In this document: one piece after another, positions 5,285 through 62,838 of the stretch
How the letters are laid out: the number at the start of each line of letters is the position of its first letter
How positions within the stretch are numbered: the stretch's first letter is position 1
From: an uncultured bacterium
GTDB taxonomy: Bacteria > Acidobacteriota > HRBIN11 > JAKEFK01
Assembly (NCBI GenBank): GCA_963777505.1
Contig: CAVZQN010000003.1
Coordinates: forward strand, 347,932 to 411,931
Length of the DNA stretch: 64,000 nt
Reading direction: 5' to 3'
The notes under the pieces: model-generated
Database searches by the model: none
Seen by the model: only the letters and a program-made list of their open reading frames with translations
What the model was told of the DNA's origin: nothing
Translations under genes and position numbers: made by a program

Positions 5285-6652
5285 ATGAAATCGTTGACTC
5301 CGGGGACACATCTCGGCCGTTTTAAGCTCAGCAACCTTTTAGGCCGGGGCGGGATGGGAGAAGTTTGGAAGGCGCAAGACGTGCGTCTCGGGCGTGAAGT
5401 TGCAATTAAGATTCTTCCCCCTGAGCTGGCAACCAATCCGGAATTACAAATCAGATTCGATCGCGAAAGTAAAATTCTTGCCGCTCTCAATCACCCTGGA
5501 ATCGCTCAAATTTATGAAGCAAACGAAGAATATCCAGAAGCCCCGGATCATTCAAAGTCGACGACCAAAATCTCATTCCTTGTTATGGAATTTGTTGAAG
5601 GAAGAAGTTTATCTGAAATTTTGGCCAATGGTTCGTTGCCTGTCTTAACGTCAGTCCGGTTGGGACGGCAAATTTCAAAGGCTCTCCACGCAGCACATGA
5701 AGCGGGAATTATTCACCGCGATCTCAAACCTGCAAATATCATGGTTACGACACGCAATCAAGTGAAAGTGCTCGATTTCGGATTGGCGCGGCCCCTGATG
5801 CAGCAGACTCACAGCACGAAGCAAGCTCTTCCGGAAGTAACTACGTCCGGAATGGTTTTGGGTACTGCGGCTTATCTAGCGCCTGAACAAATCAAAGGAA
5901 TGTCAGCAAACATACGCAGCGACATCTGGTCACTCGGCTGCGTTTTATATCAAATGACATCAGGAAAAAGGCCTTTTCCTGCAGATTCAATTCCGGAAGT
6001 TCTTGCCTCTGTATTGCGCGATGAACCTTCAGACGTTTCCACCTTAAATTCATCTGTAACTCCACCTTTAAAAACCCTCATAGAGAAATGTCTGGATAAG
6101 GACCCTGAGAGAAGACCAAAGGATGCCAAAGAAGTGAGTATCGCCTTAAAAGAAATTCTTCAGGAAATGCGTAATGGTCAGCCTTCATCGCCTTCAATGG
6201 AACCAGTGCCACTCTCTGAACTTTCAATAAGCCCATCGATTCAATTGATAAACCGCTACTTGCATATGATTGATTCCACTTTCCCCCAAATTACTGGCAA
6301 AGATGGCAAAGTTGGTTCGATTGAGCTGCAACATCACGGTACGAAGATGGGGCTTCTTGTAGTGCCAAAACCATCAGGGGATAAAGTTATGATCGTGGCT
6401 CCGCTTTGCGGTTTGCCTGAAGGAAACTTGCTGCGCGCCTTTGCAAAACTTCTTTCATTGAATAACGGACACACCGATGTAGCTCGATTTTCAATTGATC
6501 AAGAAACCCGAACAATAAATCTGATTTGCATTCGAAATTGTTCTTCGCTAGACACACGTCAATTGAGAGCGGTGCTCGATACGATGAGCACGTCAGCGCA
6601 GCGCCTGGGAATTCCTTTCATGAATGAATTCGGTCTGAAAGAGGAGAATTAG
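5285..6652 (+). CDS. Ser/Thr protein kinase with a C-terminal YbjN-like (T3SS-chaperone-like) domain
   Basis: Kinase motifs GRGGMGEVW, VAIK, HRDLKPANIM, DFGLAR, APE. The C-terminal ~130 aa are paralogous to the next ORF. Confidence 0.85.
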   Translation: MKSLTPGTHLGRFKLSNLLGRGGMGEVWKAQDVRLGREVAIKILPPELATNPELQIRFDRESKILAALNHPGIAQIYEANEEYPEAPDHSKSTTKISFLVMEFVEGRSLSEILANGSLPVLTSVRLGRQISKALHAAHEAGIIHRDLKPANIMVTTRNQVKVLDFGLARPLMQQTHSTKQALPEVTTSGMVLGTAAYLAPEQIKGMSANIRSDIWSLGCVLYQMTSGKRPFPADSIPEVLASVLRDEPSDVSTLNSSVTPPLKTLIEKCLDKDPERRPKDAKEVSIALKEILQEMRNGQPSSPSMEPVPLSELSISPSIQLINRYLHMIDSTFPQITGKDGKVGSIELQHHGTKMGLLVVPKPSGDKVMIVAPLCGLPEGNLLRAFAKLLSLNNGHTDVARFSIDQETRTINLICIRNCSSLDTRQLRAVLDTMSTSAQRLGIPFMNEFGLKEEN

Positions 6653-6654
6653 AA

Positions 6655-7119
6655 ATGCCCAGGTATGAATCCAACCAGGCAATCATTGGACATCTTCGGC
6701 GTACGAAGGCAACGTTTGATGGATTCACTCCTCAGTCTGTTTCGATGGGTGGACAATCCGTCTCCATGCTTCACGGAAAAGTTGAGTATCGTAATTCAAA
6801 AGTTCATCTTGCACTGCTTACAAGACCTGGCGAAACACATGACACTCTCATTTTTTCACTTCCTACTTTTCGTGTGAATGTTTCAACGGCTGCTGAGATA
6901 TTTGAGCAACTGCTTTCCTGGAATAACGGATCAACAGGCTCGGCACATTTTGCACTGGATGAGTTACTGAACTCGATTAACCTAGTTTGTGTACGAGCTG
7001 TTGAAGGTTTGGATCTTCATGAATTTCAGAATTGCATGGATCAAATGCTGAACGTCCGCTTGAATGCATTGAGTCAGCTGCGAAAGAACTTTGCGGCTTC
7101 TTCATTGGAGGAGTTATGA
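6655..7119 (+). CDS. YbjN-like domain protein, a paralog of the kinase C-terminal domain
   Basis: Shared pattern L.S.NNG.TG.A.F.LD....INL.C.R.....LD...L with the kinase tail, and similarity to E. coli YbjN (LSAINASSLTVKAFLDMQDDNLPKLVVCQSL). Confidence 0.5.
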   Translation: MPRYESNQAIIGHLRRTKATFDGFTPQSVSMGGQSVSMLHGKVEYRNSKVHLALLTRPGETHDTLIFSLPTFRVNVSTAAEIFEQLLSWNNGSTGSAHFALDELLNSINLVCVRAVEGLDLHEFQNCMDQMLNVRLNALSQLRKNFAASSLEEL

Positions 7120-11059: not shown

Positions 11060-11155
11060 GGATGTATTATAGCTCGATACACGATTCAGGATACAGGATT
11101 CAGGTCGGTTTCACGAGCGATAAAACTGGCTATGGCAATCCGTGTCAATGTTTTC

Positions 11156-11175
11156 TCTGTGTCTTTGTGGTTAAA
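11156..11175. repeat. Family 1 repeat copy (reverse orientation)
   Basis: CTCTGTGTCTTTGTGGTTAA, in the divergent promoter region between the FHA-ABC gene and the ECF sigma gene. Confidence 0.5.
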
Positions 11176-11223
11176 TAATTGTAAACGTTCAGGACCACTC
11201 CCACGTCCCATTATCGAGCAAGT

Positions 11224-14313: not shown

Positions 14314-14314
14314 T

Positions 14315-14344
14315 AACCGCAAAGACTCTGAGCCTCTGCGGTAA
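14315..14344. repeat. Dispersed palindromic repeat, family 1 (TAACCGCAAAGACNCAAAG-type)
   Basis: TAACCGCAAAGACTCTGAGCCTCTGCGGTA. ACCGCA/TGCGGT arms form a hairpin. Confidence 0.6.
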
Positions 14345-14351
14345 GAAAACT

Positions 14352-15092
14352 CTACCGTAAGCCGAATTTTGGGTTCAGTTCGACACGATCGGTACCATTT
14401 CCATAATAAATACCCCAGCGGATATCGCCATTGATGTGTCGAATTTTTACAGGCGCATAGTGACGTCGTTGTGGAAGATTCAATTCTTTTTCAATTCTAT
14501 TAATGAAAGAAACAGTATCACCTTTCACAAGACTATTTTTTTCAATTGCCTTTTTGTTCGGATCTTTCAATTCGAGATGACGATGTGCGAGTTCATGCAA
14601 AAATATCATCCCAATATCGAACGCCTCTCGTGGAAGATCGCGGAATACAATTTCTCCGAGATCACTAAAATCAAGTTCGATGTAATCGGTTGAAGTCACA
14701 CGTCCTAAATCAGCATTCCGGTTTTCTCGCACCTTATAAACACTCGAGTTCCGCAAGGCACTCAGTAGTAATTCTTTTCCAGTTGACGAGCATCGCCGAT
14801 CTGCAGGAATAGCTCTTTCAAGTCTGTAAACTGATGCCAGACTTGCATACAACGATCTTGGAGGTTCATACAATCTCAGATAATGATTCTTGACCTCTAG
14901 AGAAAGACAAGTAATCCTTTCAAGAGATTGAATTAATTCTGAGGATCTTGACTGCGTGCTGGCAACAGCCACGACACCGGTATTATTTGCTTCTGTGGTT
15001 TCGAAATAAATGAAGCCTTCTAAGGTATCATTTATGAAGAGGAATGAGATTGCGACTAAAGCAATAAGGCCTGAACTTACTTTTAGGTTCAT
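14352..15092 (-). CDS. Secreted hypothetical protein with a HExxH motif (putative zinc metallopeptidase)
   Basis: N-terminal signal/TM segment. FLHELAHRH motif. No other recognisable family. Confidence 0.45.
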   Translation of the reverse strand: MNLKVSSGLIALVAISFLFINDTLEGFIYFETTEANNTGVVAVASTQSRSSELIQSLERITCLSLEVKNHYLRLYEPPRSLYASLASVYRLERAIPADRRCSSTGKELLLSALRNSSVYKVRENRNADLGRVTSTDYIELDFSDLGEIVFRDLPREAFDIGMIFLHELAHRHLELKDPNKKAIEKNSLVKGDTVSFINRIEKELNLPQRRHYAPVKIRHINGDIRWGIYYGNGTDRVELNPKFGLR

Positions 15093-15722: not shown

Positions 15723-15726
15723 TTTT

Positions 15727-15746
15727 TACCGCAAAGACTCAAAGCC
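15727..15746. repeat. Family 1 repeat copy
   Basis: TACCGCAAAGACTCAAAGCC, directly after the ppiB stop. Confidence 0.55.
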
Positions 15747-15869
15747 TTTCTTGTAAACGCGTTCCGTCCTGAGACTCGTCTAATCTGCAGGTAGGGGATA
15801 AACCTTTTCGTGACAAAAGGCGGTCTACTGGGACGATCCCGCATATTTGGGATGCCATAAGGAAGAGAC

Positions 15870-19444: not shown

Positions 19445-19512
19445 AAAGGATTGAATTGCATCTTCCATGATCCGGGAGCCTCATGGCTCTTTCTTAGAAG
19501 AGAGAAATTTTA

Positions 19513-19543
19513 GCGGCGGTCCGAATGGGCCGCCGTTTTTTTT
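19513..19543. terminator. Rho-independent terminator
   Basis: GCGGCGGTCC-GAAT-GGGCCGCCG hairpin followed by T8. It sits between convergent genes. Confidence 0.6.
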
Positions 19544-19572
19544 ACCGCAGAGACTTTGAGTCTTTAGGCGGG
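19543..19572. repeat. Family 1 repeat copy (hairpin form)
   Basis: TACCGCAGAGACTTTGAGTCTTTAGGCGGG. Overlaps the stop codon of the minus-strand O-methyltransferase. Confidence 0.55.
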
Positions 19573-20601
19573 TTCAGCTTCAACGATACTATATGGTGAT
19601 TTTGTCGGAACTATTCTTGTTAGACTGAAACCGGATGTTGCAAGCAAGTTGCTGTACTCACTTGCGGTGCGTTCTTTTCCGCCCTCCATGACAAGCATCA
19701 GAAGGTCAAGTGCTTTAGCCGGACTAGGCTGGTTGTCTTCAGGAACGACCATTTCAATAATTAAGACTTTACCCTTTCCACTGATAGCAGCACGGATATT
19801 CTGAAGGATTTTGATGCTTTGTTCGTCGTCCCAGTCATGGATTATGTGTTTCATCATATAGGCATCCGCACCTGCCGGAATTGTTTTGAAAAAGTCACCT
19901 GATGCGAGTTCAACGCGCTTGCTAACACCTTCCTTGTTGAGCAATTCCTTAGCTGCGTCAATGACATGAGGCAAATCAAATAAGATTCCATTCATGTGGG
20001 GATTCATTTTCAAGATTCTGGCTAGGAGGAGTCCATGACCGCCAGCTATATCAACGAGTTTATGAACGTCAGAAAAATTGTAGGCTTCGACAATGGCAGG
20101 CATTACATTTTGCGATATATTTGTCATCGCGCGATAAAAAATCTGTCCGGCTTCCGCGTTTTGTTTGAAATACTCAAAAGAACTCATGCCCTGAACTTTA
20201 TCGTGTGCAATGCCGCCAGTTCTCACGCTATACATCAGCTCGCCCCAGGCACTCCAAAGCCAATGTTCGTCTATCATAATCGCAAAGTCGCGCATTGAAT
20301 TAGGTACATCACTTCGCAACAATGTAGCAACCGGTGTCAATTCAAACTTCTGTTTGGAGGTTTCCGAAAAGATGCCGACGCTTGCCAAAGTACGAAGGAG
20401 GCGGTACAAAGACGGTTCGTGTGCTTCTGTTGTGGCTGCGAGTTCCGCGATGGTTTGAGGGCCTTCGGCGAGTAAATCGGCAATCCTGAGTTTTGCAGCA
20501 ACACAAATGCTTTTCTGCATTAACGCTCCAAAGAGCAGTTGCATCAAGATCGCGTCAGGCGGTGGCGCATTTACATCACTATTTTGATTCTGATCAATCA
20601 T
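19564..20601 (-). CDS. Class I SAM-dependent O-methyltransferase (family 2, with a dimerisation domain)
   Basis: LVDIAGGHG, FDLPHV, GDFF, MKHIIHDWDDEQ motifs. Confidence 0.8.
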   Translation of the reverse strand: MIDQNQNSDVNAPPPDAILMQLLFGALMQKSICVAAKLRIADLLAEGPQTIAELAATTEAHEPSLYRLLRTLASVGIFSETSKQKFELTPVATLLRSDVPNSMRDFAIMIDEHWLWSAWGELMYSVRTGGIAHDKVQGMSSFEYFKQNAEAGQIFYRAMTNISQNVMPAIVEAYNFSDVHKLVDIAGGHGLLLARILKMNPHMNGILFDLPHVIDAAKELLNKEGVSKRVELASGDFFKTIPAGADAYMMKHIIHDWDDEQSIKILQNIRAAISGKGKVLIIEMVVPEDNQPSPAKALDLLMLVMEGGKERTASEYSNLLATSGFSLTRIVPTKSPYSIVEAEPA

Positions 20602-20629
20602 GTCTTACCCCCACATTTGAATATTATTT

Positions 20630-20657
20630 TACCGCAGAGACTTTGAGTCTTAGCGGT
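20630..20657. repeat. Family 1 repeat copy (hairpin form)
   Basis: TACCGCAGAGACTTTGAGTCTTAGCGGT. Includes the stop codon of the sulfatase-TPR gene. Confidence 0.55.
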
Positions 20658-22725
20658 TGAGTTTTTGACGGGCGGATTCGATTCGTGCTGCATGAATATT
20701 CGGATCGGCATAAGTAATGAAATTTTGATATGCCTGTTTAGATTCATCAGTTCTTCCCATGCGTTCCAAAATAATTCCAAGATTGTAATAAGCTTCAGCA
20801 AAATTAGGATTTTTTTCCAGCGCTTTTCGCAGTAATTCTTCCGCTCCACTCAAATCACCTTGTTGGCCTTTTAATATTGCCAGCGAGTAATATGGGTGTG
20901 CCAGGGATGGATTAAACTGAATTGCACGTTCAAATTGTTCGGATGCGCCTACAAGGTTCCCCAAATTCCGGTATGTATTTCCCAGTTCGTACGCTGCAGC
21001 CGCATTTCTAGGGTCCAGTTCCAAACTCTTTTGTAAATATGGAATCGCTTCTTGTGGCCTTCCGGATACTGTTAAGGTTTCACCCAAATTTACAAGTGCT
21101 TCTTGCATTTCCGGATCAATTTGTAACGCAAGTTTTTCTTCCACTATCGATTTTTCAATATCACCGATTCGTTTAAAGCCAAGAGCTAACCTGTGATGGA
21201 TTTTGTTATCTTCTGGTGTGAGCTGAAGCGCCTTCTGCCAATATTGAACCGCTTTTTCGGGATTTTCTTTAATTACAAATTGACCCAGCGTATCGAGTAA
21301 AACTGGATTACTGGCATCCATTTGCGAGGCTCGCTCCAAAAGTTCAATTGCCTCATTCTGTTTTCCTTCCATACTCAGAAACGTTGAACGTTCGTATAAC
21401 TTCCACACCTCAATTTTACTTTTCGGATCAGGAAGATTCTCCAGGTTCTTTGGCTTAGTTGTGCCAGACAAATATCCCAGGCTGCGAAGGTTTTCTTCAA
21501 GTGCTGGATCCATCTTTGTATCCTGGGCCGGCGGCTGGATCTTTTTGTACTTTTGCAATTTATCCGCAATGCTTCGCACAGCTTGATTATTTATTTCTTG
21601 AATGTTGGTTTTTTCATGAGGATCTGCTTTGAGGTTGTACACTTCAGGCTGTGGAGCATCAATCACTTTCCATTCTGTTGTTCTTGCCGAATGCAAAGGA
21701 CTCCAACCAATTCCAAGCGGATAATGCGTTTCAAGAATAGCGGGAACTTCACCCAGGGATTTTCCTGAAAGCATAGGCACTAATGATCTTCCATCAAGAC
21801 CTTGAGGCTTTTCACTTCCAGCAAGTTCCAGGAGTGTTGGTGCAACATCAATCAATTGAACTTGCTGAAGTATTTCTTTGCCCGAGGTTATGCTTGGACC
21901 CGCCATTACAAATGGAATCTGAATTGTAGAATCATACAAAAAAAGGCCATGACCTAGTTCATCATGATCTCCCAATCCTTCCCCATGATCGGCAGTGATG
22001 AGAATGATTGTTCTATTTCGAACAGCGTCCAGCGATTTGATAATCTTGCCGATTTGTTCATCGACATATGCAATTTCACCCAGATACTGATTCGAATAAT
22101 TCGAACGGTATGGCTCAGGAGGGTTATATCTTGCATGAGGATCATAAAAATGAATGAACAGAAAAAAAGAGGATTGCTGATTGGAAGACAGCCAGTTTAT
22201 TGCTTCCGAAGCTGTCGTATCAGCAAGGCGTTCATTTTGTGGATTGTTTGAATCCTGCGCGCCGTACTGAATGAAGTCGTCGTAAAATTCAAATCCGTTA
22301 GAAAGTCCAAACCTGTGATCCAGCACGATGCTGCTTACAAATCCGGCAGTCTTGTAGCCTTTCGACTGTAACAATGAAGGCAAGGTTGCAACAGTTGGAT
22401 TTAAGCGGTAGCCATGGTTGTCGCGAATTCCATGTTTTGCTGGTAACAGTCCAGTCAGCAGTGATGCATGTGATGGAAGAGTTAATGGTACGTGTGCTAT
22501 GGCATTTTTGAAAACGATTCCGGATCGACCTAATGCATCAATGTTTGGAGTTCGAACTTGCTGATTGCCATAAATTCCAATCGAGTCGGCTCGCGTCGTG
22601 TCGATTGAAATGAGTACAAAATTCAGTTTTGGATTTTCGGCAGCAGGCTGTGGCTTTTTCCAATAAAACAAAACCGCAAAGACGGCAATCAGAATAAAAA
22701 GAATTAGCGCAATCTTATTTCGCAA
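20650..22725 (-). CDS. Sulfatase-family hydrolase fused to C-terminal TPR repeats
   Basis: N-terminal TM helix. Sulfatase signature LISIDTTRADS..GIRDNHG, TADHGE. The C-terminal ~300 aa are TPR repeats. Confidence 0.8.
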   Translation of the reverse strand: MRNKIALILFILIAVFAVLFYWKKPQPAAENPKLNFVLISIDTTRADSIGIYGNQQVRTPNIDALGRSGIVFKNAIAHVPLTLPSHASLLTGLLPAKHGIRDNHGYRLNPTVATLPSLLQSKGYKTAGFVSSIVLDHRFGLSNGFEFYDDFIQYGAQDSNNPQNERLADTTASEAINWLSSNQQSSFFLFIHFYDPHARYNPPEPYRSNYSNQYLGEIAYVDEQIGKIIKSLDAVRNRTIILITADHGEGLGDHDELGHGLFLYDSTIQIPFVMAGPSITSGKEILQQVQLIDVAPTLLELAGSEKPQGLDGRSLVPMLSGKSLGEVPAILETHYPLGIGWSPLHSARTTEWKVIDAPQPEVYNLKADPHEKTNIQEINNQAVRSIADKLQKYKKIQPPAQDTKMDPALEENLRSLGYLSGTTKPKNLENLPDPKSKIEVWKLYERSTFLSMEGKQNEAIELLERASQMDASNPVLLDTLGQFVIKENPEKAVQYWQKALQLTPEDNKIHHRLALGFKRIGDIEKSIVEEKLALQIDPEMQEALVNLGETLTVSGRPQEAIPYLQKSLELDPRNAAAAYELGNTYRNLGNLVGASEQFERAIQFNPSLAHPYYSLAILKGQQGDLSGAEELLRKALEKNPNFAEAYYNLGIILERMGRTDESKQAYQNFITYADPNIHAARIESARQKLNR

Positions 22726-22757: not shown

Positions 22758-22830
22758 GTAGGGGCGACCCTTGTGGTCGCCCGTGTGCTCGTGTACATAT
22801 CTTAAGGGCGGCCACAAGGGCCGCCCCTAC
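22758..22830. repeat. Inverted pair of family 2 GC-hairpin repeats (GTAGGGGCG-stem-loop-CGCCC) flanking a 23-nt spacer
   Basis: GTAGGGGCGACCCTTGTGGTCGCCC ...23 nt... GGGCGGCCACAAGGGCCGCCCCTAC. Confidence 0.6.
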
Positions 22831-26256: not shown

Positions 26257-28593
26257 TTACGGGATCGAAATACGGTAAATTGGGTGGATTCCGAGAAGCG
26301 GATCACGAATTCGAATTTGTCTGTTAAACCAACCTCCATTTTGAGGCGTAAACGGGATATCCAGACGCGTAAAAATCCAGAAACTTAATTCATAATCGCC
26401 GGCCAATTCGTTTGTCGTTAATGGTATTTCAATCGGGATCTCGTGTCCTGCTTCTACAACAAATTCCTGCATATCACTTCCGATTTGATATGACTTCCAG
26501 GGCTGAGATTCGCCAACATCGCTCAAGAATGCTTCAACGTGACCGGTAACTTTCCGTTTGCTGCGGTTGATGAGCTCGCATTTCACTTTCAAAGGAGCTT
26601 CCTTGTCGAACAAAACAAAGGGTTGAAATTGTTCAGCACGCGTTATTTCTCTTTCCATTCTGACACTAAGAATTTCTAGAGGCGGACGAATTTCCGCTAC
26701 CTGAACTCCATCAGGAATTCCTTTCCATTCAAACTGAACATGTTGATTTGGTGTGATATCTGTCTGTGCGCGGCTGAACAAAGAAAATCTTGAATCTAAC
26801 CGCACAGGTAAAATTGCAAATGGAAAATATTCAGAATTTTTTTCCGCGGCAGATAAAGCGCTCATGCTGGATTTTTCCAGAATTGTTTCATTTAATTTCA
26901 AGTTTCGTACCTGTACATAAAACGAAGCATTCCTTTTTTCCGGAATTTTTAACGAATAGTATCCCGGCGGAAGCGACAGAGCACTGCCTGATTTCGTGAG
27001 GCGATATTCATCGTTTTGATCTTCTTTGATGACTGCCTGTTTAAATCCCGGTCTCACATGTAAACGATTCGTAGAAAAAACTTTGATTCTGTAATCAGGA
27101 ATGAGTGTAGGGTGGGTGACTAAATCTAAAATGAGAGCTCCTTCTGCCGGAGCCTGCTGAAAGAATGTCTCGAAATAGTCTTTGAATTTTTTAGCTTGCG
27201 GACCTTCAGTGTAATAACGCATGTATTGTCCGCTTGAAACAACAACATAATCAAATCCCTCTTTAACAAACCATTGAAAATCTTTCTTGCCGACATAATC
27301 TCGCGGCGCAAAACTTTCAATTTCAAAATAAGAAGGATCAAGTTCTATTTGATGAAATTGAAGTAGAGCGACTTTTGATCCTTGCGGAAGATGATTCACC
27401 ATCCACAATTCTGCCTTGCTCCGGTTGTCTTCTTTTGAGTATAAGTAAGCCCTTGTTAGTGCCCGCTGATATGGGAAAAATAAAGCTGCAAAGATTGCGA
27501 GTGCATATCCAATCGTTACGATCTGTGATCTTCGCGTTTGCCAGCCAGCATTCCAAATTAGATCGAATAAGATTCCAGACCACAATCCTATAAAGGGATG
27601 TAAAGGAAGTAATTCATGAACGCGCCGAACATCATATGAACAAAGCCAAACAAAGATGAAGATTGGATAGACTGAAAGCAGCAAGCCTTTAGATCTAAAA
27701 CGCCACAATGTAAATACAAAACCTGCAATACCCGAAATCGTGAGCGGCAGATGATAGTTGTATCGCGTTAAGTATTCTGCGTAGAAGTAAGCAACATTTT
27801 TTCCGTAATAATCCTCTGCCGGAGAATAGAAGGCATCCATTTTACGAACCCAGTGAAATAGACTTGAAGGGTCACTGATGAGGGAAATATTCGTTGCAAA
27901 AAAGATGAGAAAAAAACCGGCAGGAGCAGCTAGGAAAGCCGAGATGGGCAAAGCTTTCCGGTTTAACCAGAGCGCGAATCCTAACGTAAATAAAAATGGT
28001 AGTCCAATGTTGTACTTAATTGAAAATGCAGCTCCCGCCAGCAATCCGGCAATAAGAGCTCTCCGTGCTGTTGGCGTTTTGCTTAGAGAAAATGCTGCAC
28101 AATGTGCAGCAACAACAAAGAACAGGGCAGGGACTTCAGGCCGGAGCATATGACTGAATTCAATATGTTGAGGCACTGTAGCAAGAATTGCCATTCCGAT
28201 GAGCGCAGCTACTTTCCCAAAATGAAGTCCGAGTTTGTAGATGAGTACAACTGTGCCCGTTCCCAGCATCGCGCACATAAAGCGTCCAATAAAAATGAAA
28301 GAGGATTGTGGGATTGAGGTAACTTCATTGAAATATCCGGTCCAAACTCCAATCCAATAAAAAGCGTACAGAAAAGGCAAATGAATGTAATAAGAAAGGC
28401 CTGGATAAATAAATTGTTGCGGAATTAAGTTCCCTGTGTACAACATACGTTGAAGGACAAGAAGAGTATCGTTTTCGCCGTAAAGTGTGTGCAGGGGAAG
28501 TCCGGATGAAAGTCCTTTCAAACGTACCACTGCAGCAAAAGTCAGGATGATCCAAAATGCAAATCGGTGAAGGTCGGGCCGTTCACTGTTCAT
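26257..28593 (-). CDS. Polytopic membrane protein, GT39/PMT_2 (ArnT-like) glycosyltransferase family, with a large C-terminal soluble domain
   Basis: About 12 N-terminal TM helices with the ArnT/PMT-like pattern (RLKGLS.., YPGLSYY..). Its start overlaps the sensor kinase stop (ATGA). Confidence 0.5.
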   Translation of the reverse strand: MNSERPDLHRFAFWIILTFAAVVRLKGLSSGLPLHTLYGENDTLLVLQRMLYTGNLIPQQFIYPGLSYYIHLPFLYAFYWIGVWTGYFNEVTSIPQSSFIFIGRFMCAMLGTGTVVLIYKLGLHFGKVAALIGMAILATVPQHIEFSHMLRPEVPALFFVVAAHCAAFSLSKTPTARRALIAGLLAGAAFSIKYNIGLPFLFTLGFALWLNRKALPISAFLAAPAGFFLIFFATNISLISDPSSLFHWVRKMDAFYSPAEDYYGKNVAYFYAEYLTRYNYHLPLTISGIAGFVFTLWRFRSKGLLLSVYPIFIFVWLCSYDVRRVHELLPLHPFIGLWSGILFDLIWNAGWQTRRSQIVTIGYALAIFAALFFPYQRALTRAYLYSKEDNRSKAELWMVNHLPQGSKVALLQFHQIELDPSYFEIESFAPRDYVGKKDFQWFVKEGFDYVVVSSGQYMRYYTEGPQAKKFKDYFETFFQQAPAEGALILDLVTHPTLIPDYRIKVFSTNRLHVRPGFKQAVIKEDQNDEYRLTKSGSALSLPPGYYSLKIPEKRNASFYVQVRNLKLNETILEKSSMSALSAAEKNSEYFPFAILPVRLDSRFSLFSRAQTDITPNQHVQFEWKGIPDGVQVAEIRPPLEILSVRMEREITRAEQFQPFVLFDKEAPLKVKCELINRSKRKVTGHVEAFLSDVGESQPWKSYQIGSDMQEFVVEAGHEIPIEIPLTTNELAGDYELSFWIFTRLDIPFTPQNGGWFNRQIRIRDPLLGIHPIYRISIP

Positions 28594-30248
28594 CAGGAAA
28601 TACTCTTTGCATCTTTGTGGTTAGATTCTACCGCAGGCAGATGAACCTCGAATCGTGTCCCTTTCCCAGGGTGAGAATTGACGCGGATGCTGCCTTGATG
28701 TTCGGTGATGATTCTCTGGACAATTGCGAGCCCCAGGCCAGTGCCTGTAGGTTTTGTCGTGAAATACGGAGTAAAAATATGGCGTTGAACCTGTGCATCC
28801 ATTCCAGGTCCATTGTCTTCGATACTTAGAATTGCTTCTAGTGGTTCATTTGTTCCAAGCGAAGTACTCACTCGAACACTCCCTTCACTGCCGGCAGCTT
28901 CCACTGCATTTCGAACGAGATTGTGGATGACTTGCGAAATCTGTTCGTGATCAAATTCTATAGAAGGCAAATTTCCAGCATTAAATTGAACAGTTGCGGA
29001 ACCATTCGCCTGATACAGCAACAAACACTTTTGTATAACCGCATTGAGATCGCCTGATTTTCTTGATGGAGATGGAAGTCTGGCAAATCCGGAAAATTCA
29101 TCTGCAAGATGCCGGAGTTTTTCGACTTCTTCCAAGATGCTCTCACTTGATTCTTGAAAGACTTCATTAAACCGCGAAGGGACTTTTTCAAGACAAACCC
29201 GTAGATTCATGATGGACGTCTTGATCGGGGTTAATGGATTTTTGATTTCGTGTGCAAGATGGCGCGCAATTTCCTGCCATGCAGCAACTCGCTCAGCTTG
29301 CAACAACAAACGTTGCTTTTCTTGCAGCTCGCTGGTCATTCTGTTAAATGCGCGAATTAAGTCTTGAACTTCTTCACCGCCACGTTCCTCGAGTTGCATT
29401 TGCGAAGCACCTGAACCCATTCGATTCGCTGCTTCTGTCAGTTCCGCAAGCGGCGCGGTGATCCAGCGAGAAAGAAGGTGGCCGGCAGCCACGGATATCA
29501 AAAGAAATAGTACTATGAATATAGTACTATAAAAAATCAAATCCCGTTTCTCCTTTTCCATTGTCCCTGCGGATGTGGCTACAGAGACCCATGCAATGGG
29601 AACGCCATTGAAGTCTTTGACGTCGATGACCTCAGCGAGCATTTTTGGAGCCGTATTGTTCACCGGAGGACGCGACTTGAGTACTGCGATTTTTGTTCCC
29701 GGATATGGAATCCGCGTTATTTCGTCCGCAAGAAAGTAGCCGCCTTGCAGGAATACTTTTCGGTTTCCAAACTGTGCTGCGCGTCGAAATTGCAGAGTCA
29801 ATTCTGGAATCGCAACAACAACCGGTTCACCTTCTTTAATTGCCGGTTGTGAAAGAGGCTTTCCGAATAAAGCAGGCTGGCGGCTATCGCTTAAAATGAT
29901 TCCTTCAGGCGAAACAATCATTAAGAAACCTAACGGAGTTCTTCGCTTAATCCGTTCTGCAAATGCGATAACTTCTCGGTTGAATTGAGGCGGCTGCGAC
30001 AGCATGGCTGCAAGAACAGGTTCCTGTTCAATAAACAAACCGGCGGCCAACTGATCCATTTCAAGCTTTAAACTGCGGCGCAATGATTCCAATCGGAAAT
30101 TCAACAACTCTATACTTTGCTGCAACCGCTCTTTCGCTTGCCTTTCATAACTCGCGCTGATTCTGTCGTAGAGAAAAATAGCTGTGCCGGCTATGAATAT
30201 GGAAACAGTGATAGCAAGCAGCAGAGTAATTTTTACGGGTAGTCTCAT
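28593..30248 (-). CDS. Sensor histidine kinase (TM-periplasmic-TM, HAMP, HisKA, HATPase_c)
   Basis: H-box HEIKNPLTPI. N/G boxes NLVRNAVEA, DNGPGM, GTGLGLAIV. Confidence 0.85.
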   Translation of the reverse strand: MRLPVKITLLLAITVSIFIAGTAIFLYDRISASYERQAKERLQQSIELLNFRLESLRRSLKLEMDQLAAGLFIEQEPVLAAMLSQPPQFNREVIAFAERIKRRTPLGFLMIVSPEGIILSDSRQPALFGKPLSQPAIKEGEPVVVAIPELTLQFRRAAQFGNRKVFLQGGYFLADEITRIPYPGTKIAVLKSRPPVNNTAPKMLAEVIDVKDFNGVPIAWVSVATSAGTMEKEKRDLIFYSTIFIVLFLLISVAAGHLLSRWITAPLAELTEAANRMGSGASQMQLEERGGEEVQDLIRAFNRMTSELQEKQRLLLQAERVAAWQEIARHLAHEIKNPLTPIKTSIMNLRVCLEKVPSRFNEVFQESSESILEEVEKLRHLADEFSGFARLPSPSRKSGDLNAVIQKCLLLYQANGSATVQFNAGNLPSIEFDHEQISQVIHNLVRNAVEAAGSEGSVRVSTSLGTNEPLEAILSIEDNGPGMDAQVQRHIFTPYFTTKPTGTGLGLAIVQRIITEHQGSIRVNSHPGKGTRFEVHLPAVESNHKDAKSIS

Positions 30249-37070: not shown

Positions 37071-37094
37071 GTAGGGACGGGTCTAAGACCCGCC
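37071..37094. repeat. Family 2 GC-hairpin repeat copy
   Basis: GTAGGGACGGGTCTAAGACCCGCC. Confidence 0.55.
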
Positions 37095-43719: not shown

Positions 43720-45822
43720 TTATGGTGTCTCAACTCTTGCAATCTCTGGCTCTGAAGATTTCAACAGCACATATTTGCCATTCGAATTTCGCAAAAAGAT
43801 TTGTACGTCATTGTGTCCTTTGACAAATGCTGATTCAGGTAACATCACGCGAAAACTATGAATTCCTTTTTTTCGCAAAGGGCGGGTTTGTCCTGTGGAT
43901 TGGAATGTTCCATTTAATGCGACAGCAATATTCCTTTTTTCTGCACCAAGCTCTGTGGATTCAATTGTGCCTGATAACAAAGCTGGAATGAAGGTGGATT
44001 CCGGATCAACATTTCCTAAGCGTTCCTTTTTATGAATCTGGATCCGAGCGTTGGAGGTTGAAATGTTTGTAGTCGCTGGTTGGCGAATCAGCCATTGATC
44101 CGGACCTGCATAAAACAAATTTGCAGAATTCTCTTCTCCGAACCAGATAATCTTCCGGTCAACTGATCGTTGAATTTGTTTCAAATCAGAGGAGAAAGTC
44201 CTTCGGACTTTTTCGCCTGAAAGAAATGAGCGTTTATTTTGTCTTGAAGGTTCCTTTTTCACCAAGGAAAATCCATCTACTTGCCATGGAATCGAAAAAT
44301 CCAAAACTTCAGCAATCGTTGGAAGTATATCGACCGTTTCCGTATTCCAGTCAACAATTTGTCCAGTCTTTTGATCCGGATATTTTATGAATAGAGGCAC
44401 CCATAACATTTCAGGATAATTTTTCTTCTGAACTTTGCGGAGCTCAGCTCCTTCTGTTAAGCCAAGTCCGTGATCTCCCACAAAAACGATCATGGATGAA
44501 TCATACAGGTTTTCTTCTTTTAACTTGTGAACTAATTCCCCGATTAATCCATCAAGAAATTGAACTTGAAGCAAAAGCCTTTGGTACGATTCCTTCACTA
44601 CAGTTTCACTTTCCCAGGATGTCGTTTGAACCAGTGCGATATTTTCGATTTCAAATGGATCATATGTTCGCCCCGAAGGAAGAAATTCCCAAATTCTGTG
44701 CGGCAACAGGATATGTAGATATCGAAGTATTGGTTTGTTTTCGGATTCAAGCGAACTCAGAAAATCGTCAAACGTTTTTCTTCTTCCGTTTCGATGATTG
44801 GGAGAGCGAATCTGATTTTGTCGTACTTTAAAATTACCCCAATTGTTTTGAATCGAAGGTAAATTGCGGCTCAATGCTGATGGAAGCACCACATGCCCGT
44901 AAATGATCGATAAATCAGAAATAATTTCAGCAATATTGCTCGAGCTCTTCGAATGCGGGTCTTTGAGCTTTTCCGGAAAGAGTTGAGTCGCGAACTCAGT
45001 TGCTTGCATTGAATACGAATTTTGTAACAACGTGAAAAGGGTATTCGGGTAATCCAGGGGAACCGGGACCGCTCCAGCATTCGCATAACGGCCTGTAAGC
45101 ATCGTTGGAATCGAATAAGTAGTTTGATCTGCAGAGGTAGTTGTATTTCGGTAGAAGGAAGCTTTTTGAGAAAGGCTGTGAAAGTTTGGAAAAAGATGAG
45201 AATCAATTTTCAAGTCTTTATTCAAAAGAGCAACAAGCGGGAATTCGTCAAATACGACAACTATAAGGGGAGCCGGATTTTTCGGAACAACTGTTGTGCT
45301 GATGGGCGTCTCAGAGCTATAGAGTTTTTTGATTTGAGGATTGAGCAGAAGCAATGTTGGGACTATCAGAATCGCCGGAGACAAAAATAGTAAGTATGAA
45401 GAAATTACTTTTTTGTACCCAATCGAAAATAGAATCAGACTGAAAAAAAAGATACAAACCATGACGAGGATTCCAATTGAAGGGCTTAATCCTCGCGCTA
45501 TTTGCATCAAAATTGAAGTGAGCAGAACAGCAAAAACAAAAGCACGATAGCCTTGTTGAAAATGTTTCCCAACTTTTCCTGCGAGTAGATATAAAACAAA
45601 AAGTAAAAGAGGCGCAAGAAAACTGAGACAGAAAACAAAAAGCAGAAGTGATGTATTCCTTATGTCATGGAAAACAAAAAACTCTGGCGCTTTTACAAGG
45701 GTTGAATACAAAGATTGCAGTGCAAGGTTGAACAGCGCAAAAAACGGTAAAGCTTCTTTTATTTTGTTCGGGTTCGTTGGATGTTCTCCCAATTTAATAT
45801 TGTTTCTTACCACGAAGTTCAC
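43720..45822 (-). CDS. Membrane-anchored sulfatase-family (LtaS/phosphoglycerol-transferase-like) enzyme
   Basis: About 5 N-terminal TM helices. Alkaline-phosphatase-superfamily motif MIVFVGDHGLGL. The annotated start is a GTG inside the hairpin array, so the true start is uncertain. Confidence 0.5.
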   Translation of the reverse strand: MNFVVRNNIKLGEHPTNPNKIKEALPFFALFNLALQSLYSTLVKAPEFFVFHDIRNTSLLLFVFCLSFLAPLLLFVLYLLAGKVGKHFQQGYRAFVFAVLLTSILMQIARGLSPSIGILVMVCIFFFSLILFSIGYKKVISSYLLFLSPAILIVPTLLLLNPQIKKLYSSETPISTTVVPKNPAPLIVVVFDEFPLVALLNKDLKIDSHLFPNFHSLSQKASFYRNTTTSADQTTYSIPTMLTGRYANAGAVPVPLDYPNTLFTLLQNSYSMQATEFATQLFPEKLKDPHSKSSSNIAEIISDLSIIYGHVVLPSALSRNLPSIQNNWGNFKVRQNQIRSPNHRNGRRKTFDDFLSSLESENKPILRYLHILLPHRIWEFLPSGRTYDPFEIENIALVQTTSWESETVVKESYQRLLLQVQFLDGLIGELVHKLKEENLYDSSMIVFVGDHGLGLTEGAELRKVQKKNYPEMLWVPLFIKYPDQKTGQIVDWNTETVDILPTIAEVLDFSIPWQVDGFSLVKKEPSRQNKRSFLSGEKVRRTFSSDLKQIQRSVDRKIIWFGEENSANLFYAGPDQWLIRQPATTNISTSNARIQIHKKERLGNVDPESTFIPALLSGTIESTELGAEKRNIAVALNGTFQSTGQTRPLRKKGIHSFRVMLPESAFVKGHNDVQIFLRNSNGKYVLLKSSEPEIARVETP

Positions 45823-45886
45823 GAAGTATCACGAAGTCGGTTTCTACAGCAATTGTATCTTCGTGCTTCTTCGTGATCTTCGTGGT
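45810..45886. promoter_or_regulatory. Symmetric heptamer array: 3x CACGAAG, a 17-nt spacer, then 3x CTTCGTG (candidate operator or terminator hairpin)
   Basis: CACGAAGTTCACGAAGTATCACGAAGTCGG..TCTTCGTGCTTCTTCGTGATCTTCGTGG. It lies between the LuxR regulator stop and the sulfatase-like gene start. Confidence 0.55.
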
Positions 45887-46556: not shown

Positions 46557-46588
46557 CAATCAGCTCTCAGCACTCATTGCTCAGCACT
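46557..46588. repeat. 3x CTCAGCACT direct repeat upstream of the LuxR regulator
   Basis: CTCAGCACTcattgCTCAGCACTCAGCACT. On the minus strand this lies between the TMTC-like stop and the regulator start. Confidence 0.5.
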
Positions 46589-46606
46589 CAGCACTTTTAT
46601 TATAGT

Positions 46607-48230: not shown

Positions 48231-48255
48231 GTAGGGGCGGGTCTAAGACCCGCCC
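48231..48255. repeat. Family 2 GC-hairpin repeat copy
   Basis: GTAGGGGCGGGTCTAAGACCCGCCC. Confidence 0.6.
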
Positions 48256-57080: not shown

Positions 57081-57103
57081 CCTTTGTGTCTTTGTGGTAA
57101 AAA
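57081..57103. repeat. Family 1 repeat copy (reverse orientation)
   Basis: CCTTTGTGTCTTTGTGGTAAAAA. Confidence 0.5.
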
Positions 57104-57164: not shown

Positions 57165-57189
57165 GTAGGGGCGGGTCTAAGACCCGCCC
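57165..57189. repeat. Family 2 GC-hairpin repeat copy
   Basis: GTAGGGGCGGGTCTAAGACCCGCCC, identical to the copy at 48231. Confidence 0.6.
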
Positions 57190-58317: not shown

Positions 58318-58338
58318 ACTTTGCGTCTTTGTGGTTAG
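58318..58338. repeat. Family 1 repeat copy (reverse orientation)
   Basis: ACTTTGCGTCTTTGTGGTTAG, between accA and ddl. Confidence 0.5.
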
Positions 58339-59288: not shown

Positions 59289-59373
59289 AGATTAAGAAAC
59301 CGCAGAAAACGCCGAGTAGATCTGCGTTCTCTGCGGTTTCAACCTATTTTACATCAACTGAGAGGGGGGACGT

Positions 59374-62815: not shown

Positions 62816-62838
62816 CTCTTTGTGTCTTTGCGGTTAAC
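62816..62838. repeat. Family 1 repeat copy (reverse orientation)
   Basis: CTCTTTGTGTCTTTGCGGTTAAC, between guaA and dnaE. Confidence 0.5.

What the first reader, a model, noticed from the sequence alone, without database searches (positions are those of the whole stretch)
14315..14344. Dispersed quasi-palindromic intergenic repeat family 1 (TAACCGCAAAGACNCAAAG), at least 9 copies
Copies occur at 11156, 14315, 15727, 19543, 20630, 57081, 58318 and 62816, plus a coding-embedded look-alike at 28603. All are at gene boundaries, in both orientations. Several form hairpins (ACCGCAGAGACTTTGAGTCT...GCGGT) and several overlap or directly abut stop codons. Two copies (11156 and 15727) are both followed by the additional shared motif TTGTAAACG(C)GTTC. 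The density, about one per 7 kb, fits a REP/BIME-like element or a common transcription-termination or attenuation signal. A regulator-binding site shared by unrelated operons is less likely but not excluded.
Basis: seen in the sequence. Interest (0 to 1): 0.55.

Follow-up and report, generated by a model that had tools for sequence, protein, structure and literature searches.

The report
Leftover arms of a nuclease-gene cassette
The repeated motif is real. It is the end-piece of a small palindromic element found in many bacterial phyla, whose complete form carries a tiny nuclease gene (GxxExxY) lodged just after host stop codons; this window holds only gene-less hairpins and single arms of it.

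Summary

The motif conflates two forms. Single arms are two tandem CRCAAAG heptamers after a TAACC/TTACC end, and are unstructured. Short hairpins have ACCGCARAG-type arms.

It is not a genome-specific REP. The same 19-mer occurs in at least 17 phyla as the outer arm of 50-100 nt palindromes with 2-4 tandem C-R-C-N-N-A-G units per arm. The outer end usually lies 0-20 nt after a stop codon.

In 9 of 12 independently fetched loci, a ~123-aa GxxExxY (Pfam PDDEXK_3) gene sits between such arms, mostly between host genes on the same strand. One orthologous site in related Acidobacteria shows an intact cassette, a decaying pseudogene, a single-arm remnant, a 10-bp scar and an empty site.

The window has no GxxExxY gene or remnant. 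I read its copies as gene-less derivatives or relics of this probably selfish element. They lack a terminator T-tail, and related full elements from other genomes show no transcribed-strand bias.

Nuclease-driven mobility is inferred, not shown. I found no prior description of the link between these arms and GxxExxY. The closest is an unexplained repeat class in Geobacter metallireducens.

The parts
11155..11173 (-). Single arm TAACCACAAAGACACAGAG. It lies in the divergent region between the FHA-ABC transporter gene (start 11059) and the ECF sigma gene (start 11224).
   Evidence: Pattern match. Unpaired when folded, z = +1.3. nhmmer E = 1e-3 with a profile built from other genomes.
14314..14344 (+). 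Compact hairpin TAACCGCAAAGACTCTGAGCCTCTGCGGTAA, with the stem at 14316-14342. It lies between convergent genes, 7 nt from the stop of the minus-strand gene 14352-15092.
   Evidence: Folds at -10.5 kcal/mol, z = -2.9. Not flagged as terminator-like.
15726..15754 (+). Decayed compact palindrome TTACCGCAAAGACTCAAAGCCTTTCTTGT. By my reading of the sequence, 8 of 12 right-arm bases are kept. It starts 3 nt after the cyclophilin stop codon.
   Evidence: No stable fold. nhmmer E = 0.043.
19542..19573 (+). Hairpin TTACCGCAGAGACTTTGAGTCTTTAGGCGGGT. Its right arm contains the TAA stop (19564-19566) of the O-methyltransferase gene on the minus strand. It directly follows a canonical terminator at 19512-19537.
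   Evidence: Folds at -12.2 kcal/mol. The terminator scan flags only 19512-19537.
20629..20659 (.). Hairpin TTACCGCAGAGACTTTGAGTCTTAGCGGTTG, with 12-nt arms and a TTG loop. On the minus strand it contains the TAA stop (20650-20652) of the sulfatase-TPR gene. The next gene's ATG at 20601 lies 30 nt beyond it.
   Evidence: Folds at -14.0 kcal/mol, z = -6.1.
22673..22683 (+). Fragment ACCGCAAAGAC. It is oriented like a right arm for the minus-strand sulfatase gene and lies at its 5' end. Family membership is uncertain.
   Evidence: nhmmer E = 1.5.
28605..28623 (-). Arm TAACCACAAAGATGCAAAG, translated as the last residues (NHKDAK) of the histidine kinase's C-terminal tail. It lies after the HATPase_c domain (residues 433-539 of 551), at the overlapping junction with the next cistron.
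   Evidence: nhmmer E = 0.014. A relative shows the analogous case: a host ORF reads through an arm in L155.
45809..45886 (-). Full 78-nt element of the ACGAAG unit variant, with three tandem CACGAAG units per arm. It starts 6 nt after the stop of the response-regulator gene 45893-46522.
   Evidence: Generic arm search. Folds at -36.6 kcal/mol, z = -8.5.
57082..57100 (-). Single arm TTACCACAAAGACACAAAG between convergent ddl and the ParA-like gene. Conserved in relative L121 as TTACTGCAAAGACACAAAG.
   Evidence: nhmmer E = 3.5e-3.
58319..58337 (-). Single arm TAACCACAAAGACGCAAAG, 3 nt after the accA stop and 25 nt before the ddl ATG. Conserved in L121. Replaced by a hairpin of a different tandem unit in L122/L123.
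   Evidence: nhmmer E = 3e-5.
59296..59340 (-). Hairpin GAAACCGCAGAGAACGCAG...GCGTTTTCTGCGGTTTC, with two units per arm, between dnaE and accA. Conserved in L121. L123 has a hairpin of a different unit type at this site.
   Evidence: Folds at -30.6 kcal/mol, z = -8.1.
62818..62836 (-). Single arm TAACCGCAAAGACACAAAG, an exact match to the motif. It lies 2 nt after the guaA stop and 12 nt before the dnaE start. Conserved in L121, and in L123 as TAACCACAAAAACACGGAG.
   Evidence: nhmmer E = 7e-6.

Best explanation
**What it is.** The motif is the terminal arm of a palindromic element found across many bacterial phyla.
- Each arm is a (T)TAACC or TTACC outer end followed by 2-4 tandem heptamers C-R-C-N-N-A-G, spaced about 8 nt apart.
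- Two inverted arms make a 50-100 nt hairpin.
- In its complete form, a ~123-aa GxxExxY protein gene lies between the arms. The protein is Pfam PDDEXK_3, a minimal PD-(D/E)XK nuclease with the D...ExK residues conserved.
- The whole cassette sits between host genes, 0-22 nt after the upstream stop codon. It is on the same strand as the host genes in all but one locus where the flanks were read, so it probably rides on host transcription.

**What the window holds.** There are only gene-less derivatives: one full 78-nt hairpin, four short hairpins, six single arms and a fragment.

**Shown here.**
- The family relationship between window copies and copies in other genomes.
- The position next to stop codons.
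- The association of these arms with GxxExxY genes.
- That the cassette is gained and lost as one unit bounded by the arms' outer ends, and decays by internal deletion.

**Inferred.**
- The element is selfish.
- The nuclease, acting on the arms, drives its spread, either like a homing endonuclease or like the RAYT/REPIN pair.
- The window copies are non-autonomous copies or relics with no required host function. The hairpin copies could secondarily serve as RNA 3' hairpins or RNase III sites.
For: **The motif is real and enriched**.

**The same 19-mer occurs across phyla.** These include the isolates Zavarzinella formosa, Pedobacter spp. and Microcystis aeruginosa. Of 127 matches:
- 80 continue with a third unit;
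- 44 have a two-unit inverted partner within 160 nt;
- the free N equals the R of the first unit in 105.

**Elements are discrete modules.** Similarity between loci from different phyla stops at the element ends.

**The outer end lies next to stop codons.** For full elements the distance is 20 nt or less in 18 of 24. For single arms it is 10 nt or less in 14 of 37. The inner end is never within 20 nt of a stop.

**GxxExxY genes lie between such arms.**
- Three motif-selected loci: L024, L101, L105.
- Six of nine protein-selected loci: L137, L138, L139, L140, L141, L151.
- Host contexts include fabD|GxxExxY|fabG and radA|GxxExxY.
- Over-long predicted GxxExxY proteins begin with translated arms, for example SHRDAEAQR.

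**One orthologous site (M20 peptidase | asd) shows every state**:
- intact cassette (L141);
- same arms with a frameshifted and truncated gene (L154-156);
- a decayed left arm (L157);
- CCACAGTGGC, the two outermost arm ends joined at a CAG microhomology (L153);
- an empty site (L164).

**The protein looks like a nuclease.** The AlphaFold model has mean pLDDT 93. Its best structural matches are Cas4, lambda exonuclease and splicing endonuclease. D74, E84 and K86 are invariant.

**The profile test links the window to the family.** A profile built from arms in other genomes recovers the window copies.
Against: - No GxxExxY gene or remnant is in the window.
- Only about 1% of the motif copies sampled are attached to a gene, and no loop of a gene-less hairpin holds a gene fragment. 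Simple decay of cassettes therefore cannot account for most hairpins. They must spread on their own or in trans, and that was not observed.
- No target-site duplication could be resolved, because TA/TTAA is itself palindromic.
- Three of 12 GxxExxY loci have other flanks: a simple inverted repeat in Treponema, and other tandem units in Persicobacter and Prevotella.
- Hairpins of the same architecture but unrelated units occupy neighbouring gene ends with no known cargo. Examples are the GTGCTGAG, GGATTTCG, ATGCAAG and GGAAACT unit types. The architecture may therefore have a more general cause.
- The guaA|dnaE arm is conserved between relatives whose AccA is 88% identical, which could mean constraint.
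- Nuclease activity and mobility are untested.
- Gene calls in the foreign loci came from a crude ORF heuristic.
Confidence: 0.6

Rival explanations
1. The elements are RNA hairpins at gene 3' ends that the host selects for. They would act as mRNA stabilisers, RNase III processing sites inside operons, or non-canonical terminators. GxxExxY genes would then merely lodge in their loops.
For: - Almost every gene end in the guaA-dnaE-accA-ddl cluster and its orthologues carries some tandem-unit hairpin, even where the unit sequence differs.
- Stems of 22-28 bp match, from general knowledge, the length RNase III needs.
- The outer ends lie next to stop codons.
- Hairpins are very stable, -25 to -60 kcal/mol.
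Against: - About 60% of copies, and 6 of 12 in the window, are single arms that do not fold.
- No T-tail: the scan flags none of them, and the flanks are T before and A after.
- No preference for the transcribed strand in 28 full elements: 12 against 15, p = 0.70.
- Arms of one element can be different unit variants with a mismatch in every unit, as in L041 and L053.
- An identical sequence in many phyla is not expected for a purely structural signal.
Confidence: 0.17
2. The hairpins come first, as an independent mobile or self-generated element. The GxxExxY gene is a secondary invader that homes into hairpin loops. On this view the window copies were never part of a cassette.
For: - Gene-less copies outnumber gene-bearing ones by about 100 to 1, with no gene fragments in their loops.
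- Other unit families show the same architecture without cargo.
- Short arms shared by filled and empty hairpins would give homology for homing (inference).
Against: At the M20|asd site the arms and the gene are present or absent together. The scar in L153 keeps only the outermost arm bases, and the empty site in L164 has no hairpin. That is only one site.
Confidence: 0.13
3. They are ordinary MITEs of a conventional DDE transposase that targets TA or TTAA (IS630- or IS5-like). GxxExxY would be a passenger gene.
For: - Discrete elements of about 60 nt with terminal inverted repeats and unrelated flanks.
- Palindromic tTAACC...GGTTAa ends, compatible with a TA or TTAA duplication.
- Present on viral contigs.
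Against: - No transposase recurs near the elements in about 1 Mb of loci.
- No long form was seen other than the GxxExxY cassette.
- The tandem-heptamer arms, with units homogenised within an arm, are unlike transposase-binding inverted repeats.
Confidence: 0.06
4. They are arrays of binding sites for a nucleoid-associated or global regulator protein (IHF/HU). This was proposed for the paired tandem-repeat sites of Geobacter metallireducens.
For: Aklujkar et al. 2009 (PMC2700814) describe 21 inverted pairs of 3x TCTCCGTS(Y), which is the reverse complement of the CACGGAGA-type unit. The pairs lie between adjacent genes, and the authors suggest IHF/HU binding.
Against: - That proposal was a conjecture without binding data.
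- An 8-bp period does not keep sites on one face of the DNA helix (inference).
- The unit sequence varies freely between and within genomes.
- The sites lie at 3' ends and not at promoters.
Confidence: 0.04

Closest known systems
REP / REPIN elements with their RAYT (TnpA_REP) transposase
   Same: Short extragenic palindromic repeats, common at gene 3' ends. They occur as inverted doublets and as decayed singlets. A small nuclease-type gene is itself flanked by the repeats, and non-autonomous copies far outnumber the gene.
   Different: - There is no GTAG head, and single arms are not palindromes.
- The arms are tandem heptamers.
- The sequence is shared across phyla and is not lineage-specific.
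- The associated protein has a PD-(D/E)XK fold and is not a Y1 HUH transposase. It is multi-copy in many genomes.
- The window also holds a true GTAG-type REP as a separate family.
Paired tandem-repeat 'global regulator binding sites' of Geobacter metallireducens (classes 1-3; Aklujkar et al. 2009, PMC2700814)
   Same: - Same architecture: 3-5 tandem 7-9-mers on one strand, paired with an inverted array at variable distance, lying between adjacent genes.
- The class 2 unit TCTCCGTS(Y) is the reverse complement of a C-R-C-N-N-A-G unit.
   Different: - They were described in one genome only, as unique to it.
- They were interpreted as IHF/HU sites.
- No link to GxxExxY genes, to stop codons or to other phyla was made.
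- I could not compare the sequences directly.
MITEs (for example Correia/NEMIS, ERIC, RUP, cyanobacterial Nezha)
   Same: Small, non-coding, inverted-repeat elements scattered in intergenic DNA. They are often co-transcribed with neighbouring genes, and there is a longer partner with the same termini.
   Different: The longer partner encodes a 123-aa nuclease and not a transposase. No target-site duplication was shown. The arms are internally tandem.
Homing endonuclease genes and free-standing selfish nuclease cassettes
   Same: A small nuclease gene inserted at precise positions between or within host genes, with patchy distribution across phyla and frequent decay to pseudogenes.
   Different: Homing endonuclease genes are not bracketed by long tandem-repeat inverted arms and do not leave abundant gene-less hairpins. 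Neither homing nor cleavage has been shown for GxxExxY.
Cyanobacterial STRR heptamer repeats and small dispersed repeats (from memory: Mazel 1990; Elhai 2008)
   Same: Tandem heptanucleotide arrays in intergenic DNA, of unknown function.
   Different: The units differ (CCCCAGT and others). They are described only for heterocystous cyanobacteria, are not defined as inverted pairs next to stop codons, and have no nuclease cargo. I did not test this comparison here.

Membership tests
REP/BIME (RAYT-associated REP) | Each unit is itself an imperfect palindrome of about 20-40 nt. | tested here: not met
   Six window copies are single arms that stay unpaired. Only paired arms fold.
REP/BIME (RAYT-associated REP) | Conserved GTAG (or similar) tetranucleotide at the 5' end. 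| tested here: not met
   The ends are TAACC or TTACC. GTAG-headed REPs exist separately at 37071, 48231 and 57165.
REP/BIME (RAYT-associated REP) | Sequence specific to a species or genus. | tested here: not met
   The same 19-mer and the same element boundaries occur in at least 17 phyla.
REP/BIME (RAYT-associated REP) | A RAYT (Y1 transposase) gene flanked by the repeats. | not tested
   I did not search for a RAYT. The gene found between the arms is GxxExxY/PDDEXK_3.
MITE | Terminal inverted repeats, small size, no coding capacity. | tested here: met
   Full copies are 50-100 nt with inverted arms.
MITE | Target-site duplication. | tested here: inconclusive
   The flanks are tTA...TAa. TA or TTAA is palindromic and cannot be told apart from the inverted repeat.
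MITE | An autonomous partner with the same termini that encodes a transposase. | tested here: inconclusive
   A partner with the same termini exists, but it encodes a 123-aa PD-(D/E)XK protein of unknown activity. No transposase recurs nearby.
Intrinsic (Rho-independent) terminator | Stable hairpin followed by a run of T. | tested here: not met
   The scan flags none of the five hairpins. The consensus downstream flank is TAA, and the T-rich run lies upstream.
G. metallireducens class 2 paired tandem-repeat sites | Three tandem 8-9-nt units (TCTCCGTS[Y]) in inverted pairs between adjacent genes. | tested here: met
   The architecture and the unit pattern (reverse complement C-R-C-N-N-A-G) match the paper's description. 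This rests on the description; the sequences were not aligned.
G. metallireducens class 2 paired tandem-repeat sites | Bound by IHF/HU, as the authors proposed. | not testable with these tools
   No binding data exist in the paper or here.
Arms of GxxExxY cassettes (operational family defined here) | Tandem C-R-C-N-N-A-G units at about 8-nt period behind a (T)TAACC/TTACC outer end. | tested here: met
   A profile from other genomes recovers seven window copies at E = 7e-6 to 0.04.
Arms of GxxExxY cassettes (operational family defined here) | The outer end lies next to a host stop codon, with the arm in the sense orientation of the upstream gene. | tested here: met
   True at 15726, 20641, 28605, 45886, 58319 and 62818. 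The same holds in foreign loci and in cassettes.
Arms of GxxExxY cassettes (operational family defined here) | A GxxExxY gene lies between the arms. | tested here: not met
   No GxxExxY ORF or fragment is in the window. The window copies are therefore gene-less derivatives, not cassettes.

The most novel reading that the evidence does not exclude
GxxExxY (PDDEXK_3) proteins are a very large family of unknown function. On this reading they are the nucleases of a previously undescribed class of tiny selfish cassettes spread across phyla. The cassettes are bracketed by tandem-heptamer inverted arrays and insert immediately downstream of stop codons inside operons. They spawn abundant gene-less hairpins and solo arms, and the window's motif is one of these footprints. 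This would be a PD-(D/E)XK counterpart of the RAYT/REPIN system.
Probability: 0.4. Interest if true: 0.85.

Novelty: new variant of a known kind. Interest (0 to 1): 0.62.

Why it matters
**An unexplained feature gets a handle.** Intergenic hairpins built from tandem 7-9-mers litter the gene ends of Acidobacteria, Planctomycetes, Chloroflexi, Bacteroidota, Cyanobacteria and others. In the literature I could search they have been noted only once, in Geobacter, and were left unexplained.

**A large orphan protein family gets a testable role.** One superfamily of these hairpins is tied here to the GxxExxY nuclease family. This gives a defined substrate to test: the arms, as DNA hairpin, cruciform or double-stranded RNA.

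**Practical consequences for annotation.**
- It explains spurious N-terminal extensions of predicted proteins, such as HKGHK or SHRDAEAQR.
- It explains host ORFs that read through an arm.
- It explains split genes.
- It warns against reading these motifs as regulons or terminators.

If the element proves mobile, it would be one of the smallest protein-coding mobile units known.

Tried and rejected
**Searches that found nothing useful**
- Rfam at gathering score on the window and on 18 loci gave no family. A permissive scan on a full hairpin gave only sub-threshold miRNA-precursor matches, which means a generic hairpin.
- Literature searches by sequence (three sets of 11-15-mers) returned only primers.
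- Searches for GxxExxY and PDDEXK_3 returned only 'function unknown, multiple transfers'.
- BLAST of a full element against plasmids and phages gave essentially nothing.
- A scan of viral contigs for GxxExxY relatives confirmed none.
- A metagenome scan around the DUF5916 gene gave only 3 loci, none informative for the repeats.
- A look-up for the window's own contig returned no DNA.

**Ideas tested and dropped**
- Recurrent neighbouring gene families, looking for a 'master' transposase: none found.
- Inverted arms 120-1500 nt apart with an ORF between them, using a strict right-arm pattern: nothing. The cassettes were found through ORF clustering instead.
- Terminator reading: rejected.
- RNA-level strand bias: none.

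**Resemblances dropped as chance or as failing on distribution**
- The DnaA box: TTATCCACA against TTAACCACA.
- The Haemophilus uptake sequence, whose reverse complement is ACCGCACTT.
- The integron attC core (TAAC/GTTA).
- The 23S rRNA 5' end.

None of these explains the tandem units, the position next to stop codons or the spread across phyla.

**The extra motif.** TTGTAAACG(C)GTTC is not part of the element. It occurs in a different relative orientation at its two sites, and it fits an ECF-type -35/-10 promoter.
Full report
**1. The observation**

The pattern TAACCGCAAAGACNCAAAG with up to 3 mismatches has 8 matches in the window against 0.05 expected.

A core search and a generic arm search add three things:
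- a 45-nt hairpin at 59296-59340;
- a fragment at 22673;
- a 78-nt element of the CACGAAG unit variant at 45809-45886.

Only about 3.1 kb of the window lies between the longest ORFs. Every copy sits in that space or within the last 12 codons of a gene; the one exception is the fragment at 22673, which may lie inside the 5' end of the sulfatase ORF. The window is 44% G+C. By its AccA relatives it comes from an Acidobacteriota genome.

**2. Anatomy in the window**

- **Single arms.** These are a TAACC or TTACC end followed by two tandem heptamers, CRCAAAG-A-CRCAAAG. They lie at 11155, 57082, 58319, 62818 and 28605. They stay unpaired when folded, and three regions fold less well than shuffled sequence (z about +1.3 to +1.5).
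- **Hairpins.** These lie at 14316-14342, 19544-19573, 20631-20657, 59296-59340 and 45809-45886, with energies from -10.5 to -36.6 kcal/mol and z down to -8.5.
- The copy at 15726 is a decayed compact palindrome.

In the compact hairpins the 'second unit' TCAAAG is really the loop plus the start of the right arm. That explains N = T there. Elsewhere N copies the R of the first unit, in 105 of 127 copies from other genomes.

The arms face gene ends:
- They start 2-7 nt after a stop codon at 15726, 58319, 62818, 45886 and 14344.
- They contain the stop at 20650-20652 and 19564-19566.
- At 28605 the arm is translated as the NHKDAK part of the histidine kinase's C-terminal tail.

**3. It is not a genome-specific REP**

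By my own arithmetic about 35 chance hits are expected over the whole 596 Gb. The flanks show that these are real elements:
- 80 of 127 matches continue with a third unit;
- 44 have a two-unit inverted partner within 160 nt.

The loci come from Acidobacteriota, Planctomycetota, Chloroflexota, Cyanobacteriota, Bacteroidota, Verrucomicrobiota, Gemmatimonadota and several proteobacterial classes. They also come from Desulfobacterota, Nitrospinota, Armatimonadota, Cloacimonadota and others. Isolates are among them: Zavarzinella formosa DSM 19928, two Pedobacter species and Microcystis aeruginosa NIES-4325.

The full element reads tTAACC-(CRCNNAG + 1-2 nt)x2-4, then a short loop, then the inverted array and GGTTAa. 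Total length is mostly 50-100 nt.

All-against-all BLAST shows that similarity between loci from different phyla ends at the element boundaries. Nine viral contigs also carry the motif, and several of those copies are full hairpins.

Rfam has no family for it.

**4. Position**

With a simple ORF model, the outer (TAACC) end lies -3 to +20 nt from the stop of a same-strand ORF in about 50 of 130 copies. In 11 copies the element's own TAA is the stop codon.

- In full elements both outer ends lie next to stops.
- In single arms the inner end is never within 20 nt of a stop.

**5. Orthologous comparisons**

The relatives compared are L121 (AccA 97% identical), L122 (89%) and L123/L124 (88%).

- The guaA|dnaE arm is conserved in every relative that covers that junction.
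- The dnaE|accA and accA|ddl elements are conserved in L121. In L123, and at accA|ddl also in L122, they are replaced by hairpins of the same architecture but different units (CGAAATCC; ATGCAAG).
- After ddl, the window has a GTAG-type REP, L121 a GTGCTGAG-unit hairpin, and L123 a CACGAAG-unit hairpin.

Gene ends in this lineage therefore nearly always carry some tandem-unit hairpin, and the occupant turns over.

**6. The link to a gene**

Clustering ORFs across the motif-selected loci exposed three small proteins of about 125 residues with LGPGLLESxY. They match NCBIfam TIGR04256 'GxxExxY protein' and Pfam PF13366 PDDEXK_3. Each lies between inverted arms.

In L105 the sequence reads ...TATTAA|CCACAAAGACTCAAAGTAGGCACAAAGAACACTAAG-ATG...TAA-AACCTCTTTGTGCACTTAGTGTAAATTCTTTGTGCCTTTGTGGTTAAAT. 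This is the window's own motif.

I then fetched loci selected by the protein and not by the motif.

| Locus | Organism | Context | Arms |
|---|---|---|---|
| L137 | Bacteroides finegoldii | radA \| GxxExxY \| FAD protein | both |
| L138 | Bernardetia | ade \| GxxExxY \| manC-like | both |
| L139 | Gemmatirosa | pseudogene | partial arm upstream; a separate full hairpin follows the gene |
| L140 | Sphingomonas | fabD \| GxxExxY \| fabG | left arm only |
| L141-150 | Acidobacteria | M20 peptidase \| GxxExxY \| asd | both |
| L151/152 | Blastocatellia | inside a biosynthetic operon | both |

Three other loci differ: Treponema has a simple 12-nt inverted repeat, and Persicobacter and Prevotella have other tandem units. 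In total 9 of 12 independent loci have CRCNNAG arms.

Where the flanks were read, the cassette lies 0-22 nt after the upstream stop. It is on the same strand as its flanking genes in every locus read except L024, a 1.7-kb contig where the neighbouring genes could not be seen. Over-long predicted homologues start with translated arms, such as SHRDAEAQR and EPRRHRGTE.

**7. Gain and loss as a unit**

Relatives were compared at the M20|asd junction. Percentages are Asd identity to L141.

| Locus | Asd identity | State |
|---|---|---|
| L141 | reference | intact cassette |
| L154-156 | 88% | same arms; gene has a 1-nt frameshift and two internal deletions; host stop mutated, so the M20 ORF reads through the arm |
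| L157 | 94% | only a decayed left arm, plus a hairpin of another unit type |
| L153 | 92% | only TAAG-CCACAGTGGC |
| L164 | 85% | empty 27-nt spacer |
| L160 | 85% | a GGAAACT-unit hairpin |

The L153 sequence is exactly the outermost bases of both arms joined at a shared CAG. These results come, with alignment A2.

The insertion and deletion unit is therefore bounded by the arms' outer ends. Cassettes decay into single arms and small scars.

**8. The protein**

The AlphaFold model has mean pLDDT 93. Foldseek places it among PD-(D/E)XK nucleases, including Cas4 SSO0001, lambda and alkaline exonucleases, splicing endonuclease and Hjc. The scores are weak (best E = 1.7e-3, TM about 0.48).

D74, E84 and K86 are invariant in 54 homologues. 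The PDB has no relative detectable by sequence. The 2012 survey of the PD-(D/E)XK superfamily lists PDDEXK_3 as 'unknown' with 'multiple transfers'.

**9. What argues against simple answers**

- *Terminators.* None of the hairpins has a T-tail. The consensus flanks are T upstream and A downstream.
- *RNA-level selection.* Folding energy of the sense strand against the antisense strand in 28 oriented full elements shows no bias: 12 against 15, Wilcoxon p = 0.70. This is a weak test.
- *Pure decay of cassettes.* Only about 1% of sampled motif copies carry the gene. No hairpin loop and no part of the window holds a GxxExxY fragment. Most hairpins must therefore have multiplied without the gene, in trans or otherwise.
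- *Specificity.* Other unit families share the architecture with no known cargo.
- *Open question.* Why the arms are tandem arrays, homogenised within an arm and sometimes differing between the two arms of one element (L041, L053), remains unexplained.

**10. Prior knowledge**

The only description I found is the G. metallireducens genome paper (PMC2700814). It reports inverted pairs of tandem repeats between adjacent genes:
- 4x GTTGCTYN;
- 3x TCTCCGTS(Y), which is the reverse complement of a CRCNNAG unit;
- 5x MTYCTGA.

The authors guessed these were IHF/HU sites. They also found IS110-family ISGme8 inserted beside the class 1 sites. I found no paper that links such arms to GxxExxY genes.

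**11. Verdict**

The REP/terminator reading is only loosely right.

The best-supported account is that the window holds gene-less hairpins and solo arms of a probably selfish element found across phyla. The complete form of that element is a GxxExxY nuclease cassette lodged after stop codons.

- *Shown:* membership of the family, and the cassette as a unit of gain and loss.
- *Inferred:* nuclease-driven spread, and the absence of a host function.

Noticed in passing
window 61789-61804 (dnaE; ORFs 61730-62806 and 59374-61785, minus strand): dnaE is split into two overlapping ORFs by a 1-nt insertion (TTGATCTATCGAAATC against TTGATC-ATGGAAATC). Relatives L121 and L123 have an intact dnaE of 1143 and 1153 aa. 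A sequencing or assembly indel is most likely; a pseudogene of an essential gene is unlikely.
   Followed up: partly
window 37071-37094, 48231-48254, 57165-57188; also 22761-22782 and 22806-22826: A separate, classical REP-like family with a GTAG head: GTAGGG(G/A)CGGGTCTAAGACCCGCC. Related GC-rich hairpins are GGGGCGACCCTTGTGGTCGCCC and GGGCGGCCACAAGGGCCGCCC. At the ddl 3' end, the window's REP is replaced by tandem-unit hairpins in relatives L121 and L123.
   Followed up: partly
window 11180-11207 and 15752-15780 (+): TGTAAACG-N13-18-CGTC occurs only at these two sites (0.04 expected). One lies upstream of the ECF sigma factor gene (11224) and one upstream of the DUF5916 gene (15870). It looks like an ECF-type -35/-10 promoter pair: autoregulation plus one target.
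   Followed up: partly
window 11084-11104 (+) and 46564-46595: Single arms of other tandem-unit families: ATTCAGGATACAGGATTCAGG, and GTGCTGAG-type units (CTCAGCACT x3 on the + strand). A full hairpin of the GTGCTGAG type sits at the ddl 3' end in L121. Further unit types occupy orthologous gene ends in L123 and L160: CGAAATCC, ATGCAAG, GGAAACT, TGAATTA. No cargo gene is known for any of them.
   Followed up: partly
L105 2414-7067: In a Bacteroidetes MAG, the GxxExxY cassette lies between a stand-alone homocysteine S-methyltransferase ORF and the rest of MetH, so metH is split at a domain boundary. The downstream MetH ORF also carries an in-frame DUF559 (endonuclease-like) domain between the two B12-binding domains.
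   Followed up: partly
L155 2120-2200; window 28593-28630: Host ORFs can read through an arm. In L155 the M20 peptidase stop TAG has become TTG, and the ORF extends across the left arm. In the window, the histidine kinase's C-terminal tail is partly arm-encoded (NHKDAK). The arms contain no stop codons in the sense frames.
   Followed up: partly
L003 about 6580-6750 and L050 about 330-550: MAGs assigned to two different phyla (Cloacimonadota and Armatimonadota) share about 180 nt at 88-89% identity around the motif, well beyond the element itself. This could be a larger mobile unit or a binning artefact.
   Followed up: no
L038 4607-4809 and L080 6104-6299 (Zavarzinella formosa): Longer units of about 200 nt whose inverted ends begin with TAACCACAAAGACGCAAAGATCACACAAAG..., with the palindromic similarity extending beyond the usual outer end. 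This is a larger MITE-like derivative in an isolate genome.
   Followed up: no
G. metallireducens (literature, PMC2700814 supplement 5): IS110-family ISGme8 copies lie next to the class 1 tandem-octamer sites (GTTGCTYN x4); the paper states that ISGme8/ISGme9 insertions are at a fixed distance from them. Such arrays may serve as targets for site-specific insertion sequences.
   Followed up: no
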